Shown here one piece after another: positions 3,802 to 64,000 of a stretch of 64,000 nt of DNA; within the stretch, counting starts at the first letter, position 1; every line of letters begins with the position of its first letter. The translations under genes and the position numbers were made by a program. The notes beneath the pieces were generated by a model. That model made no database searches. It had not been told where the DNA came from and worked only from the letters and a program-made list of their open reading frames with translations. The stretch lies in the IMG/VR virus record IMGVR_UViG_3300025073_000026; one strand, given 5' to 3'. This DNA is from a virus.

Positions 3802-3927
3802 CAACCTACCTCCCCTTCCCACCCCATACTACCCTACCACAAGGATTCCTAACAGGTACAAGTTGCTCCCCACGGTAATCCCATTATGGAGTAGCCTTTC
3901 AATAGCAGCGAGTTTGGAGGCCAACCC

Positions 3928-8610: not shown

Positions 8611-8668
8611 TGCCCCTACCTCCACACCCCTTACTACCCTAACCCATGTATCCCTAACAGGATATCCG

Positions 8669-13200: not shown

Positions 13201-13300
13201 ATTGTTAGACAACGATAGGCAGACATAGATAAGAAAGCCAGCACTTTGTGCTTGCTCCCTTGTGATTACTGTAGTACAGTCCATCAAGGAGGATTGGTGG

Positions 13301-14575
13301 ATGACTCGCTCATCAAAAACTTCTCTCAAATTTGCTAATCCATCCAAACAGATAGCACTCCAATCCATCATCTCTGAATACTCTAAACTAACTCAATCCA
13401 TCATCGATACCATCTGGACACAAGCAGGGCCAATCCCAGCCCTGCTCCCAGCCAATATCACCAATGAACTCAAACAGCAAACATGGCTCTCCGCTCGGAT
13501 GATCCAATGTGCCGCAAAACAAGCTTCCGCCATCGTCCGTGGGACACAGGCCAAGCAGAAAAAACGCCTCTTCCTAATCGCTAAACTCAAAACCCAAGGC
13601 AAACTCAAACAAGCCCGAAAACTCGAACGACTCTGCAATGCTGCAGTGACCTCCAAGCCAACTCTCGACGGCAGTCTGGTTCCTATGGAACTGGACCGCC
13701 GCTTCATCCGATTTGATTTCACTCCGGAGACGGTAGCATTTGATTCATGGATTACTATCACATCAGTTGGTGACAAAAAGAAGCTAGTGCTCCCGTTCAA
13801 GAAAACCAAGCACATCCAGAAACTCATTGATAAGGGCGGTATCATGGCTCCAGGAGCCCGGATCACAGCCAAGAACATAACCCTGATGTTTGAGTTCAAG
13901 GACAAGGAACCTCAGGAACCCCATCCTCAGGAAGTTCCGAAAGAGATGATTGCGGGACTTGACATCGGGGTCAAGTCTTGCATTTCTGTTTCGTATAGCG
14001 ATGGTAGTTTTCATCAAGTATCAGAGGACGCCCATGGCTGGAGTCTTGACAAGATCAGTGACAAACTCTCAAGAAAGACGAAGGACTCGGGGGCATTTCA
14101 TAGGGCGCAAACTCATCGCACTAACTTCATAAACTGGTCGATTAATCAAGTAGACTTCCACGGTATCCGGGAGCTTAGGATTGAGGGTATCAGGAATCTC
14201 AGGTTGCGTAAGAGAGTTTCAAGGAAGTTGAGTCATTTTGTGTACCGGGAGATTTTTGACAGGTTGGGGATGAAAGCCGAAGAGGCGGATGTTCTGCTTT
14301 CTGAGGTTTCACCAGCCTATACAAGTCAAAGGTGCTCCGTTTGTGGTTGGACTCGTAGATCTAATCGAAAGGGAAAGCAATTCAAGTGCGGCAAATGCGG
14401 TTTTACTGCTGATGCAGATTTGAATGCTTCCGTGAACATTAGGTTGGACCTGAAGCCGATAGGCAAGAAGGAGCGGCTGAAGCGATTGAACCGGACGGGC
14501 TTTTATTGGCCGGTCGAGTTAGATCGTTTTGGGGCAGGAGTGTATAGTCCCTGCTGTCCTGGGAGCTTGGAGTGA
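13301..14575 (+). mobile_element. tnpB: IS200/IS605-type RNA-guided endonuclease TnpB (no tnpA nearby)
   Basis: RuvC-I GLDIG, RuvC-II IEG, YTSQRCSVCG...CGKCG zinc finger, RuvC-III DADLNASVNI; AGGAGG RBS; opposite strand to its neighbours. Confidence 0.9.
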
Positions 14576-15431: not shown

Positions 15432-15480
15432 AACCCGGTGGCTTCCTGGCCCCGCTAAGTGCATGAGAAGCCACCGGGTT
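15432..15480. repeat. 14-bp perfect inverted repeat (hairpin)
   Basis: AACCCGGTGGCTTC-N21-GAAGCCACCGGGTT in an intergenic gap. Confidence 0.8.
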
Positions 15481-15570: not shown

Positions 15571-16095
15571 TCAATCAACCAGTTCCGTCACAAGGACAGA
15601 ACCTGGTTCCCATCCCTCTAACCGCATGCTCAAATGCAGGTTCAACTGCTCCAACACTTGTTTGATCTCTTTGATGGATTTTCGGCCAAGCCCCTTCAAC
15701 TTGATCAAGTCAATTTCACTGAGTTGGACTATCTCACCTACCCAATGGATCCGAGCAGCATGCAGCACATGCTCTGTACGGATAGACAAATCAAGGTTGC
15801 TGACTTGTAGGCTACAGGCATGCCCCATATCCGACTCTCCCTCAGTTGGGTATGGATCAGCATCAGGCTGGATAGGTTTCTCACAATACAGGCTCAACTT
15901 TTCCTTGGTTGCCTTCCTGAGCCTGTATTCCATCCGAGCAAGAATCTGCCGTACTCGCTCTCTGGAGAGGAACACCTTCTCACCGATTTCTTCCAGGCTC
16001 ATTACAGGTGCTCGACCCTGACCGTCCTGTAGGAGCGGAATACCGTATCGGAGGCACAGGATCGTGATGTCCCGTGGATTGATAGGAGTTGGCAT
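15571..16095 (-). CDS. sigma70 region-4 HTH fused to RNA polymerase alpha-CTD-like domain
   Basis: MSLEEIGEKVFLSRERVRQI (sigma4.2) plus LDLSIRTEHVL..ARI..VGEIVQLSEIDLIKLKGLGRKSIKEIKQVL (alphaCTD). Confidence 0.85.
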   Translation of the reverse strand: MPTPINPRDITILCLRYGIPLLQDGQGRAPVMSLEEIGEKVFLSRERVRQILARMEYRLRKATKEKLSLYCEKPIQPDADPYPTEGESDMGHACSLQVSNLDLSIRTEHVLHAARIHWVGEIVQLSEIDLIKLKGLGRKSIKEIKQVLEQLNLHLSMRLEGWEPGSVLVTELVD

Positions 16096-16127
16096 TGTGG
16101 TCGACCTCCAAAGATGCTACCACTCTT

Positions 16128-16155
16128 TACTACTCTACTTTCTTGGAATCTAACA
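16128..16155 (-). promoter_or_regulatory. phage promoter upstream of the sigma4-alphaCTD gene
   Basis: TGTTAG at 16155-16150 and TAGAGTAGTA at 16137-16128. Confidence 0.75.
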
Positions 16156-16717
16156 CAGGTTTAGAGTCTTCGTGATCTTCGGAGAAGATTTTCAGCCTTT
16201 TGAGCGCCCGTAGATTGATGGAACTAGCACACCACCAACAATTCCGGTCATCTCCCCCAAAGTGGAGCATGAATCCAGTCCCGTCTGGTCCTGTAGTTGC
16301 GTAAGCCTCTTTCGTCTCCGGCGTCACGCTACCTACTTCAGCCAGACAGTAGCCAAATAAGGAAGGGGCTAGTACCATATCCCCGACCTTGATACCGTTC
16401 AGGGTCTTGATCCGGTACTTTCCTGTGTTAGCTAGACGCTCGTACATAGCTATTTCTGGCTCAGTACGGGTGTCATCTACAGGTGTTTTCGTGTTTCCTG
16501 CATCTTCGTGAAGACACTTCTTAGCGCCCCCTACTCGGTACTTGGCGTTGATAGCGTCTAAGGCTTCAAATGTCAGCCCCTCTGGGGCCAACACTACCTC
16601 GGCTCCTATCTGCTCGTAGCACATCCACTTGGGGGCTTCCTTTGGTTTGTCCGGGTGACCAAAGTTCTCTATGTCCATCGTGGACGGTGTTACTACCTTT
16701 GGGGACTCTCTGTCCAT
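16130..16717 (-). CDS. hypothetical protein, paralog A
   Basis: C-terminal domain shared with the next ORF. Confidence 0.7.
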   Translation of the reverse strand: MDRESPKVVTPSTMDIENFGHPDKPKEAPKWMCYEQIGAEVVLAPEGLTFEALDAINAKYRVGGAKKCLHEDAGNTKTPVDDTRTEPEIAMYERLANTGKYRIKTLNGIKVGDMVLAPSLFGYCLAEVGSVTPETKEAYATTGPDGTGFMLHFGGDDRNCWWCASSINLRALKRLKIFSEDHEDSKPVLDSKKVE

Positions 16718-16729
16718 ACGGGTATCTCC

Positions 16730-17338
16730 TTATCGGCTGATTTCCATCTTTTTGATTCCCTTCAGATTCATACTGAGGCCGCACCACCAGCAATCCCAGT
16801 CGGGACCACCAAATTCCAGAGGGAAGGCGCAACTTGAACTCCTTGCCCATGCCTTCCTCTCTTTGGCCCTTACCTCAGTTACGTTTGCAAGGGCATACCC
16901 AAAAAGGGTAGGGACCAAAAGCAGATCGCCTATCTGGATGCCATTAATGGACGTGATCTGGTATGTCTCTTCGTTGTCGATGACCTCAGCGATAGCTTTG
17001 CTCTGCTCATCCGACAAATCCAGTTGCTTCCCATCCTTGCTAACAGACTGATCTAGGGTCTCCTGAATTACTAGTCCCTTTGGGGCAAGGAGGACCGGCC
17101 CTCCATTCCGCATATGGACAGCCCAGCCTACAGGTTTGGTATCAGGGTCAGCAGGTAGGACTGTCATCTCAGTTCTAGACGGGATCTTCCCCACAGGCTC
17201 AGGTTCACCCACTTTGAAGGTGGTCCCATCAGGCAAAGAAATCGTCCTCATTACCTTCCCAGGGGGAAACACCGTTGCCATGTCATCATCCGCTAACATG
17301 GCTGCGTCCTTTTCCAACTTGGTGGGATCATCGGTCAT
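16730..17338 (-). CDS. hypothetical protein, paralog B
   Basis: NGI..GD..L.P.LFGY.LA.V...FGG.D..CWWC..S.NL shared with 16130-16717. Confidence 0.7.
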   Translation of the reverse strand: MTDDPTKLEKDAAMLADDDMATVFPPGKVMRTISLPDGTTFKVGEPEPVGKIPSRTEMTVLPADPDTKPVGWAVHMRNGGPVLLAPKGLVIQETLDQSVSKDGKQLDLSDEQSKAIAEVIDNEETYQITSINGIQIGDLLLVPTLFGYALANVTEVRAKERKAWARSSSCAFPLEFGGPDWDCWWCGLSMNLKGIKKMEISR

Positions 17339-44770: not shown

Positions 44771-44798
44771 TGTTAGGAAAGGAAAAAATAGGGTAGTA
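44771..44798 (+). promoter_or_regulatory. representative phage promoter TGTTAG-N12-YRGRGTAGTA
   Basis: TGTTAG at 44771-44776 and TAGGGTAGTA at 44789-44798; the same spacing occurs at more than 20 sites in the window. Confidence 0.8.
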
Positions 44799-52773: not shown

Positions 52774-52988
52774 TTCTCGTTGCCTATCTTGTATCTACCT
52801 TCCATGCCCCAAGACCCGCAATGCCCAGTGCCCAGTGCCTTTAGGAACCAGCCTTCAAAGGGCGGGTCAAGAAGGATACTCGCGAAACAAGCCAAAACTG
52901 CCCCAAGTACTCCGATAAACCAACCGATCTGTGACGCCGTTATTTTCATACTTGCACCTCCACACCCTACTACTCTACCGTTGCACAT
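52770..52988 (-). CDS. small membrane protein (start likely MKITAS)
   Basis: TM helix; promoter at 52968-52995. Confidence 0.5.
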   Translation of the reverse strand: MCNGRVVGCGGASMKITASQIGWFIGVLGAVLACFASILLDPPFEGWFLKALGTGHCGSWGMEGRYKIGNEK

Positions 52989-53032
52989 CCTAACAGGAAT
53001 TCCTTGTTAGATTTTCTACCAGCAGGGTAGTA
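52968..53032. promoter_or_regulatory. back-to-back pair of TGTTAG-N17-TAGTA promoters
   Basis: Minus: 52968-52995; plus: 53005-53032. Confidence 0.75.
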
Positions 53033-63424: not shown

Positions 63425-64000
63425 GTGACTCGCAGATACATCCGACACAAGGAATGCCCCTTTGCTCTAACGGCCGAGAAGATAAACGAGATACGAATAC
63501 TAATCTCTCAGGGGATGACCCTAACAGAAGTGGGCAAACGTACAGGCCGATCAAGACAAGCAGTAACCCAGATATCTCAGAGATATGGTATCCCACTCCC
63601 TGAGAGAGTAGACTGGTCAAGAGTAAACCTGAGTCAGGACTACCATGACATCGCCAAAGAACTGAGAGTCACTGAATCCACAGTCACTGAACACCAACGG
63701 AAAGCACTTGGGCATACAGTCCCTTGGCGGAAGAGACTGCTGGAAGATGTTCCAGACGCCATTCTAGTCACCCCCGAAGCCTACAACATCCTCAGAGAAT
63801 TAGGTGGGAAGGACACCACTAAGGTTTACCTGGAACGTAAACGACGGGGCCTAAGTAGGCCCAAAGAGCAACGAAACTGGCAGGAAGCCGCCCATTTATT
63901 CGGTCATGTCTCTGATCGAGAAGTAGGTGCCCAGATGGGTGTCTCAGATCGTGCGGCCTCTATTCAGAGGCGCAGACGTGGGATTCACGCTTGCAATCCC
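63425..64000 (+). CDS. multi-HTH DNA-binding protein (3' end runs off window)
   Basis: Manual translation from GTG: GMTLTEVGKRTGRSRQAVTQI, DIAKELRVTESTV, SDREVGAQMGVS; promoter at 63340-63367. Confidence 0.7.
   Translation, partial: MTRRYIRHKECPFALTAEKINEIRILISQGMTLTEVGKRTGRSRQAVTQISQRYGIPLPERVDWSRVNLSQDYHDIAKELRVTESTVTEHQRKALGHTVPWRKRLLEDVPDAILVTPEAYNILRELGGKDTTKVYLERKRRGLSRPKEQRNWQEAAHLFGHVSDREVGAQMGVSDRAASIQRRRRGIHACNP

What the first reader, a model, noticed from the sequence alone, without database searches (positions are those of the whole stretch)
15571..16095. Sigma4-alphaCTD fusion protein: candidate reader of the TGTTAG -35 element
The 174-aa protein joins a sigma70 region 4.2 HTH (the -35 reader) to an RNA polymerase alphaCTD (the UP-element and activator contact). 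These two modules normally sit side by side on promoter DNA but belong to different subunits. Its own gene carries the TGTTAG promoter. Inference: a single-chain adaptor that redirects host RNAP to phage promoters, or a decoy that titrates host activators and -35 sites.
Basis: partly seen in the sequence, partly recalled or inferred. Interest (0 to 1): 0.72.

Follow-up and report, generated by a model that had tools for sequence, protein, structure and literature searches.

The report
Phage sigma4–alphaCTD fusion protein
A large uncultured phage encodes a small protein that joins copies of the two host RNA polymerase parts that read the upstream half of a promoter; the fusion is real and belongs to a recurrent, uncharacterised phage family, but its DNA-reading residues match the ordinary host type, so it is unlikely to be the dedicated reader of the phage's own unusual promoters.

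Summary
The ORF at 15571-16095 (minus strand, 174 aa) carries a Sigma70_r4 HTH (residues 6-60) and an RNA_pol_A_CTD (90-150), both above Pfam's cut-offs. A flexible linker of about 25 residues joins them. The σ4 half folds like region 4 of primary sigmas. The αCTD half superposes on E. coli αCTD at about 1.2 Å.

The gene has a GGAGG ribosome-binding site and a copy of a real promoter class, TGTTAG-N16-GTAGT (19 exact copies against 0.06 expected).

The σ4 recognition helix keeps the −35-contacting residues of housekeeping σ70 (R584, E585, R586, R588, Q589 equivalents). These are nearly invariant in 44 αCTD-associated σ4 modules from unrelated phages, defence islands and bacteria, so nothing marks it as specialised for TGTTAG. 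Its own gene also depends on that promoter class.

My best reading (about 0.4) is a single-chain mimic of the upstream promoter-reading half of the holoenzyme. It would occupy host-type UP/−35 DNA and divert RNA polymerase from host promoters. Rival readings are an adaptor at phage promoters (about 0.25) and a protein decoy (about 0.2).

The same phage also encodes an RNAP ω homolog. Earlier notes of this scan described the promoter on this genome; none described the fusion on other DNA.

The parts
15571..16095 (-). CDS of the 174-aa σ4-αCTD protein (P0001), stop codon included
   Evidence: The identical DNA occurs in other metagenome contigs. The 143-aa cluster member P0157 is only a different start call on the same sequence.
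15898..16080 (-). σ70 region-4-type HTH module (residues 6-66): helices 7-17, 34-41 and 45-66/71, with recognition helix SRERVRQ at residues 44-50
   Evidence: Pfam Sigma70_r4, 30.7 bits. The AF2 model of residues 1-76 has pLDDT 83.2. All top Foldseek matches are region 4 of SigA/σ70/σS. Best NCBIfam sigma hits are RpoD/SigA/SigB/SigC/MzaA types.
15814..15897 (-). Linker (residues 67-94), predicted disordered and rich in Pro/Asp/Glu
   Evidence: pLDDT is below 50 for residues 63-90. The linker alone finds nothing in the PDB.
15595..15813 (-). RNAP αCTD module (residues 95-167). E. coli R265, G296, K298, S299 and E302 equivalents are kept as R106, G137, K139, S140 and E143. N268 and C269 are replaced by H109 and V110.
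   Evidence: Pfam RNA_pol_A_CTD, 59.9 bits. Alignment to E. coli RpoA residues 254-326. Foldseek 3n97_C rmsd 1.2 Å, TM 0.91, 43% identity.
16128..16155 (-). Phage promoter of the TGTTAG-N16-GTAGTA class, lying in the last codons of the upstream gene
16105..16109 (-). Shine-Dalgarno GGAGG, 9 nt upstream of the ATG
   Evidence: sequence read
15432..15480 (-). Perfect 15-bp stem-loop in the 165-nt gap downstream of the gene, with no U-tract and no Rfam match. Possibly a transcript-end or stability element.

Best explanation
P0001 is a phage-made single-chain copy of the upstream promoter-reading half of the bacterial holoenzyme. It has a three-helix σ70 region-4 HTH that reads a −35-type hexamer in the major groove. 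A flexible tether of about 25 residues links it to an αCTD that binds the adjacent minor groove or backbone. This is the arrangement the two modules adopt on UP/−35 DNA in RNAP complexes.

SHOWN: both folds are present, the DNA-contact residues of σ4 are retained, most of the αCTD DNA-contact residues are retained, the linker is flexible, and the gene has expression signals.

INFERRED:
- Fusion gives avidity, so the protein binds composite UP-proximal/−35 sites much more tightly than either free domain.
- Its base-contacting residues are those of housekeeping σ70, so it should prefer host-type (TTGACA-like) −35 elements.
- It lacks σ2 and αNTD, so it cannot initiate transcription or assemble into RNAP.
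- It therefore acts as a competitive occupant of strong host promoters, shutting off or diverting host RNAP.
- The phage's own TGTTAG/GTAGTA promoters do not resemble its target and would escape.

I put about 0.65 on 'sequence-directed DNA-binding regulator of promoter choice' in general, and about 0.4 on the host-promoter-competitor version specifically.
For: Both domains score above the Pfam cut-offs. Both folds are confirmed.

By the alignment and the σ70 numbering, σ4 keeps the equivalents of σ70 R554, R562, L573, E574, R584, E585, R586, R588 and Q589. In 44 related modules T/R/E/R/R/Q are at least 90% invariant. The best sigma models matched are RpoD/SigA types, not ECF.

The αCTD keeps R265, G296, K298 and S299. 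These are also the most conserved columns of the family alignment.

E261 and σ70 R603, which touch each other when the two modules sit side by side, are conservatively kept as D102 and K64 (sequence; numbering).

3n97 shows the two modules adjacent on UP/−35 DNA.

No σ2 or αNTD is present; the protein is 174 aa.

Canonical σ70-type promoter-like sites are absent around the gene (0 against 4.3 expected). They are under-represented across the window (42 against 57.4 ± 5.7), as expected if the phage avoids the target of such a protein.
Against: There is no binding or transcription data. The αCTD has lost two of the classical DNA-binding determinant residues (N268 to H, C269 to V), which may weaken or change DNA binding. 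The depletion of σ70-like sites is modest (z about −2.7) and has other possible causes. The host is unknown; a proteobacterium is only inferred from αCTD and ω similarity. The phage promoters carry a T-rich tract right where an αCTD would sit next to the hexamer, which fits an activating role equally well. Same-order relatives in temperate phages lie where late activators usually lie. The family-wide invariance of the recognition helix could reflect mimicry for a protein partner rather than DNA reading.
Confidence: 0.4

Rival explanations
1. First reader's adaptor model. The σ4 module reads TGTTAG (or yTGTTA) and the αCTD reads the T-rich tract just upstream. The protein docks on RNAP, for example on the β-flap in place of host σ70 region 4. 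It would act as an outsourced −35/UP reader that activates the phage promoter class, analogous in logic to T4 AsiA/MotA sigma appropriation or a split sigma.
For: The promoter logo has a moderately conserved T-rich tract at −40..−38 (0.5-0.6 bits per position) directly upstream of the invariant TGTTAG. That is the αCTD/σ4 geometry of 3n97. Shifted by one base, yTGTTA shares TTG..A with TTGACA. No σ2, σ3 or RNAP-core Pfam hit, even a faint one, appears in about 130 kb of the genome. The promoters are unlike σ70 consensus (−7 not conserved), so some adaptor is needed. The phage also encodes an ω homolog, suggesting it re-equips host core RNAP. The relative P0002 sits in a late-activator-like position in a temperate phage.
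Against: The recognition residues are identical to σ70 and invariant across unrelated family members, so there is no basis for a TGTTAG-specific reading. The invariant TTAG part is not explained by these residues. The gene itself is driven by the same promoter class, with no host-type promoter nearby, which creates a bootstrapping problem unless the protein is injected. The first helix of σ domain 4 is missing. From memory, positions where σ70 mutations weaken flap binding (D581, L607) are F42 and S68 here. A free σ4 bound at −35 would compete with the holoenzyme's own σ4 unless that is displaced, and no AsiA-like gene was identified. The genome is incompletely seen, so a phage sigma or virion RNAP may exist.
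Confidence: 0.25
2. Protein decoy. The fusion displays the two RNAP surfaces most often contacted by regulators. It would soak up proteins that target them: host activators or anti-sigma factors, host defence sensors, or the phage's own RNAP-modifying enzymes such as ADP-ribosyltransferases of the T4 Alt/ModA kind, which modify αCTD R265.
For: The αCTD '287 determinant' (activator contact patch) is conservatively kept as S126 E127 I128 D129 L130 and R158 L159. The same αCTD+σ4 pair is embedded in defence proteins, namely the central region of BREX PglW and PglW-like proteins in a defence island, where it could serve as bait. The phage carries two PARP-like genes, an ADP-ribosylglycohydrolase, NADAR and NUDIX. 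The residues flanking the R265 equivalent are unusually diverged in P0001 (RTEHV against family RSxNC).
Against: No partner is identified. The conserved positions are precisely the DNA-contact residues of both modules, more than a protein decoy would need. Stoichiometric titration of many regulators is inefficient.
Confidence: 0.2
3. General DNA-binding or architectural protein, or a recently captured gene fragment chimera with little function.
For: Only three near-identical sequences of this exact protein are known, and there are no orthologs at intermediate distance. So selection on this particular gene cannot be measured.
Against: The gene has its own strong promoter and ribosome-binding site. 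The αCTD is only about 45% identical to RpoA, so it is not a recent capture, yet its key residues are kept. The same architecture recurs in several phage protein clusters of 53-179 members.
Confidence: 0.1

Closest known systems
Host RNAP upstream promoter-recognition pair: σ70 region 4.2 on the −35 hexamer next to αCTD on the proximal UP subsite (PDB 3n97; also 1ku7 and 1lb2)
   Same: The folds are the same and so are the σ4 base-contact residues. Most αCTD DNA-contact residues are kept. The modules are known to sit side by side and touch (E261/R603 equivalents are D102/K64).
   Different: Here the two modules are one polypeptide, detached from σ2-σ3 and from αNTD. The first helix of σ domain 4 is absent. 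αCTD N268 and C269 are changed. The σ4 turn carries a 7-residue insertion.
'Minimal' single-HTH sigma factors and gp33-type flap binders of group 2 jumbo phages (Iyer et al. 2021, PMC7824862)
   Same: These are phage-encoded stand-alone σ4-like HTH proteins presumed to act on host RNAP. I also found many phage proteins with an orphan group-1-type σ4 module plus other, unannotated regions.
   Different: That survey mentions no αCTD fusion and no phage ω. P0001's partner domain is an αCTD.
T4 AsiA/MotA sigma appropriation at middle promoters (from my own knowledge)
   Same: A phage replaces −35 recognition at its own promoter class. If TAGRGT is taken as the −10 element, TGTTAG lies 12 bp upstream, like the MotA box.
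   Different: There is no sequence or family similarity to MotA or AsiA. MotA uses a different DNA-binding fold and needs AsiA to remodel σ4. No AsiA-like gene was identified here.
S. aureus phage G1 gp67 (ORF67) bound to σA region 4 (PDB 4g6d, 4g8x; function from my own knowledge)
   Same: A phage targets the σ4/αCTD/UP-element junction to shut down UP-dependent (rRNA) host promoters. That is the outcome I propose.
   Different: gp67 is an unrelated protein that binds σ4. P0001 would compete for the DNA itself.
Central αCTD+σ4 region of the BREX/Pgl kinase PglW, and PglW-like [αCTD]2-3-σ4-X proteins
   Same: The same two Pfam domains and the same invariant TRERVRQ helix.
   Different: The domain order is reversed. 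The proteins are much larger (600-1400 aa) and have kinase or unknown C-terminal regions. They are host or MGE defence proteins, not phage proteins.
Engineered α-σ70 region 4 chimeras used in bacterial two-hybrid and activation studies (from my own knowledge)
   Same: A σ4 module tethered by a flexible linker can bind an auxiliary −35 element on its own.
   Different: Those chimeras keep αNTD, so they are assembled into RNAP. P0001 keeps the αCTD instead and cannot assemble.

Membership tests
σ70-family sigma factor | σ2 domain (region 2: core binding, −10 recognition and melting) | tested here: not met
   Pfam and NCBIfam match only the region 4 end of sigma models. The protein is 174 aa with σ4 at residues 6-66.
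σ70-family sigma factor | Region 4.2 HTH with −35 contact residues | tested here: met
   Sigma70_r4 scores 30.7 bits against a cut-off of 24.1. The SRERVRQ helix is present. Fold matches are σA/σ70 region 4.
RNAP α subunit (RpoA) | αNTD (RNA_pol_L / RNA_pol_A_bac) for dimerisation and core assembly | tested here: not met
   There are no such Pfam hits. RpoA models match only at their C-terminal 70-80 positions and fall far below the equivalog cut-offs.
RNAP α subunit (RpoA) | αCTD fold with R265/G296/K298/S299 DNA-binding determinant | tested here: met
   59.9 bits. R106, G137, K139 and S140 are kept, while N268 and C269 are not. Rmsd is about 1.2 Å to E. coli αCTD.
Small phage σ4+αCTD fusion proteins (PF04545+PF03118; ESM Atlas clusters of 184-454 aa, mostly Uroviricota) | Both domains in one small protein | tested here: met
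   The relatives P0002-P0005 have the same two domains.
Small phage σ4+αCTD fusion proteins (PF04545+PF03118; ESM Atlas clusters of 184-454 aa, mostly Uroviricota) | Sequence kinship over both domains with other members | tested here: inconclusive
   Identity to P0002-P0004 and P0110 is only 30-39%. The Atlas similarity score is 0.90. Independent fusion of the same two domains cannot be excluded.
T4 MotA-type activator | MotA N- and C-terminal domains; AsiA partner | tested here: not met
   P0001 has no MotA or AsiA family hit in Pfam or PHROGs. AsiA was not specifically searched for in the rest of the genome.
BREX/Pgl PglW | Ser/Thr kinase domain and a protein of about 1400 aa | tested here: not met
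   P0001 matches only PglW model positions 806-864, at 23 bits.
LuxR/GerE-type HTH regulators | GerE HTH signature | tested here: not met
   No GerE hit for P0001 at E ≤ 10. The best HTH models are sigma region 4.

The most novel reading that the evidence does not exclude
The phage re-equips host core RNAP with its own small parts. P0001 would work as a detachable −35/UP reader (an outsourced σ4 plus αCTD in one chain) that, together with the phage ω homolog and a not-yet-seen −10-reading factor, drives the TGTTAG-N16-GTAGTA promoter class. That would be a 'split sigma' in which upstream promoter recognition is carried by a separate polypeptide built from two different host subunits.
Probability: 0.2. 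Interest if true: 0.85.

Novelty: new variant of a known kind. Interest (0 to 1): 0.6.

Why it matters
Phages are known to redirect host RNA polymerase with sigma factors, anti-sigma or appropriation factors and covalent modification. They are not known to do so with a free-standing single chain that copies σ region 4 and αCTD together. If it competes for UP/−35 DNA, it is a new, simple route to host shut-off and a natural probe of the σ4-αCTD-UP junction. If it activates the phage promoters, it is a new form of split sigma.

The architecture recurs in several phage protein clusters and, reversed, in defence proteins such as PglW. One biochemical characterisation would therefore annotate a whole family and might explain why defence systems carry the same two modules. 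The phage-encoded ω homolog and the strict, non-canonical promoter class make this genome a compact test system.

Tried and rejected
- No whole genome is held for this window.
Binding to RNAP and expression or TSS could therefore not be tested.
- P0001 was not found in viral contigs.
- The promoter pattern in viral contigs gave only single, chance-level matches per contig, so no relatives using this promoter class were found.
- tblastn against deposited phages gave mostly bacterial rpoA in mislabelled records. One gut-phage contig covered both domains at 26% identity.
- The 832-aa phage protein has no relative among deposited phages.
- The linker alone finds nothing in the PDB, so RpoA-linker ancestry is not shown.
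- Two neighbouring genes with faint Sigma70_r4 hits turned out to be tandem-HTH proteins without σ2, so they are not sigma factors.
- The 143-aa 'truncated' cluster member is the same DNA with another start call.
- A 118-sequence alignment misplaced the σ4 segments onto the αCTD and was discarded.
- Literature searches for the fusion, the hexamer and a phage ω found no description.
- Rfam finds nothing around the gene.
- Rejected readings: a full sigma factor (no σ2), an RpoA paralog that assembles into RNAP (no αNTD), and a LuxR/GerE regulator (no hit).

Full report
OBSERVATION

The window holds an ORF at 15571-16095 on the minus strand (174 aa, P0001).

Pfam finds RNA_pol_A_CTD at residues 90-150 (E 2e-16, 59.9 bits, cut-off 23.8). 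It finds Sigma70_r4 at residues 6-60 (E 2.2e-7, 30.7 bits, cut-off 24.1). PHROGs gives only a weak sigma-factor hit.

A sequence search of the PDB puts the C-terminal half on E. coli RpoA residues 254-326 (1coo, E 8e-16). The N-terminal half falls on region 4 of RpoD/SigA (E about 1e-3).

An AF2 model of the whole protein is of modest confidence (pLDDT 58.9). It shows two helical domains and a disordered stretch at residues 63-90.

The σ4 module modelled alone with 44 homologous modules is confident (pLDDT 83.2, and 92-98 over the HTH). It has three helices: 7-17, 34-41 and 45-71. All its best structural matches are region 4 of primary or σS sigmas (probability 1.00, TM 0.56-0.66).

The αCTD half superposes on E. 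coli αCTD at 1.0-1.3 Å (TM 0.90-0.93, 42-45% identity). Both lists include 3n97, the solved complex of αCTD and σ region 4 side by side on UP/−35 DNA.

The gene has GGAGG 9 nt before its ATG. The 143-aa cluster member is the same DNA with a later start call.

THE PROMOTER

TGTTAG alone is barely enriched (35 against 24.2 expected). The bipartite TGTTAG-N16-GTAGT is another matter: 19 copies against 0.06 expected, always with the same spacing. Allowing one mismatch gives 24 copies. All point into genes on both strands.

The logo reads wTTTCc at −41..−36, TGTTAG at −35..−30 and YAGRGTAGTA at −17..−8. Position −7 is unconserved, and a GGAGG(TG) ribosome-binding site follows closely.

One copy lies at 16128-16155(-), inside the end of the upstream gene and 33 nt before the ATG of P0001.

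Two registers are possible. In the first, TAGTAN is the −10 with a 17-bp spacer. In the second, TAGRGT (which fits TAnnnT) is the −10, with TGTTAG 12 bp upstream, as for a T4 MotA box. TSS data are needed to decide.

Canonical σ70-type sites are absent near the gene (0 against 4.3 expected). They are under-represented in the window (42 against 57.4 ± 5.7).

Earlier notes of this scan had already described the motif here and in the adjacent window. I re-derived it independently.

CONTEXT

The window has 31 tRNA genes on one strand. Its content looks like host takeover: two PARP-like genes, ADP-ribosylglycohydrolase, NADAR, NUDIX, NadD-like, CinA, Thg1, an anti-Pycsar-like protein, methylases, HNH endonucleases, TnpB and an endolysin.

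Walking along metagenome contigs covered about window −47 kb to +83 kb. No Sigma70_r2, r3 or RNAP-core Pfam hit appears there, not even a faint one. No terminase, portal or capsid hit appears either. The genome is therefore larger than what I saw, and a phage sigma or RNAP elsewhere cannot be excluded.

Two genes with faint Sigma70_r4 hits are tandem-HTH proteins, not sigmas.

Unexpectedly, the phage encodes a 74-aa homolog of the RNAP ω subunit. It scores 51.7 bits on Pfam RNA_pol_Rpb6 (cut-off 26) and 54.5 bits on TIGR00690 rpoZ (cut-off 23.6). Its closest solved relatives are the ω subunits of entries 6j9e and 7f0r, which I recall as Xanthomonas and Pseudomonas RNAP.

Together with the E. 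coli/Pseudomonas-like αCTD, including the MRLEGWEP tail, this points to a gamma- or beta-proteobacterial host or donor. That is an inference.

RESIDUE-LEVEL READING

This section uses the alignment, the sequence and the E. coli σ70 C-terminal numbering from my own knowledge.

In σ4, the equivalents of R554, R562, L573, E574, T583, R584, E585, R586, R588, Q589 and K593 are R8, R16, L34, E35, S44, R45, E46, R47, R49, Q50 and R54. Every classical −35 contact is therefore kept.

In an alignment of 44 αCTD-associated σ4 modules from phages, defence islands and bacteria, E46 and Q50 are invariant. G18, L34, G38, T44, R45, R47 and R49 are at least 90% conserved. A helix that is constant across unrelated elements cannot encode a phage-specific hexamer preference. 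Its expected target is the generic TTGACA-type element, with which yTGTTA shares only TTG..A.

In the αCTD, R265, G296, K298, S299 and E302 are kept, and these are the most conserved family columns. N268 and C269 are H and V. The 287 patch is conservatively kept. The 261 patch is partly kept: E261 becomes D102, and its σ70 partner R603 becomes K64.

The module lacks the first helix of σ domain 4.

RELATIVES

The exhaustive search of 1.84 billion representatives gave 5315 hits at E ≤ 1e-3. No full-length relative was above 50% identity.

Most top hits are multi-αCTD proteins. Many have the architecture [αCTD]2-3, then σ4, then 300-500 unannotated residues. They resemble the centre of the BREX/Pgl kinase PglW.

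Same-order relatives are P0002-P0004 (221-237 aa), P0110 (376 aa) and P0069 (396 aa, two αCTDs). P0002 lies in a temperate-phage early/replication module. P0155 lies in an ICE or defence island beside a HATPase gene and CBASS. P0110 lies in a bacterial chromosome.

The ESM Atlas has clusters of 53-179 small proteins in which nearly all members carry both domains. The taxa known for them are mostly Uroviricota.

Among the 80 viral contigs with the most similar σ4 modules, none had an αCTD. Many were full sigmas. A group of 200-295-aa proteins carried an orphan σ4 plus unannotated regions.

The literature searches found no description of the fusion. The main jumbo-phage survey mentions minimal single-HTH sigmas and gp33, but neither an αCTD fusion nor a phage ω.

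MECHANISM

What is shown is a two-module, flexibly linked protein with the DNA-contact residues of the upstream promoter readers of the holoenzyme, expressed from a phage promoter.

I infer that fusion gives avidity for composite UP-proximal/−35 sites. The protein has neither σ2 nor αNTD, so wherever it binds a −35 element it competes with the holoenzyme's own σ4 and αCTD.

Given σ70-type recognition residues, the best targets are host-type promoters, especially UP-assisted ones. The phage's TGTTAG/GTAGTA promoters and its depletion of σ70-like sites would keep it clear of its own genome. I put this at about 0.4, and a DNA-binding regulator of promoter choice in general at about 0.65.

- the T-tract next to TGTTAG;
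- the lack of any visible phage sigma;
- the phage ω.

It has four points against it:
- the unspecialised recognition helix;
- the self-promoter;
- the missing first σ4 helix;
- the need to displace host σ4.

A protein-decoy role (about 0.2) is suggested by the same module pair in defence proteins and by the phage's ADP-ribosylation genes.

VERDICT

This is a real and unusual protein. The protein is a divergent member of a recurrent but uncharacterised class of phage proteins, and it is readily testable.

Noticed in passing
L008:13800-14024 (+), about 23 kb left of the window start on the same phage contig: A 74-aa phage-encoded homolog of the RNAP ω subunit (RpoZ). Pfam RNA_pol_Rpb6 scores 51.7 bits (cut-off 26) and TIGR00690 scores 54.5 bits (cut-off 23.6). 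The N-terminus MARVTV is kept, and the closest solved relatives are the ω subunits of 6j9e and 7f0r. It lies next to NAPRTase and NAD synthase genes. I found no phage ω described in the papers searched.
   Followed up: partly
window, whole (for example 3828-3854, 8633-8659, 44771-44797, 52969-53031): The TGTTAG-N16-GTAGTA promoter class is the only evident promoter class here. Canonical σ70-like sites are under-represented (42 against 57 ± 6). Position −7 is not conserved. An alternative register makes TAGRGT the −10 element, with TGTTAG 12 bp upstream like a T4 MotA box.
   Followed up: partly
window 63425-64000 (continues as L005:11284-12021) and L005:13957-14502 (-): Two phage proteins (245 and 181 aa) with two N-terminal HTH motifs each (HTH_23 and Sigma70_r4-like). 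The first sits behind its own TGTTAG promoter. They are not sigma factors, but they are other candidate readers or regulators of the phage promoters.
   Followed up: partly
window 16130-16717 (-) and 16730-17338 (-): The two genes just upstream of the target are paralogs (34% identity over 158 residues, E 3e-28). They share a C-terminal FGY.LA.V ... CWWC motif and have no family hit.
   Followed up: partly
window 15432-15480 (-): A perfect 15-bp stem-loop in an unusually long (165 nt) gap after the target gene. It has no U-tract and no Rfam match.
   Followed up: partly
L011:6344-10142: A 713-aa [αCTD]2-σ4-X protein (P0155) follows a 545-aa HATPase_c_3 protein that weakly hits PADLOC MzaB (E 0.0017). 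The pair lies in an ICE or defence island next to a CBASS operon. It may be an MZA- or PglW-like defence pair using RNAP-mimicking modules.
   Followed up: partly
P0006 (1031 aa) and other hits: Metagenomic proteins with up to 12 tandem αCTD-like repeats dominate the exhaustive search. αCTD is evidently a widely reused module outside RpoA.
   Followed up: no
L015-L017, L021, L023, L025, L027, L037, L054, L068 (viral contigs): A group of phage proteins of 200-295 aa has a strong group-1-type σ4 module (58-74 bits in the members tested) in the middle and unannotated N- and C-terminal regions. These are orphan σ4 proteins with partners other than αCTD.
   Followed up: partly
window 13262-14575 (+): A TnpB/Cas12f-like gene lies two genes downstream of the target on the opposite strand. 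A second copy lies at L013:1101-2285.
   Followed up: no
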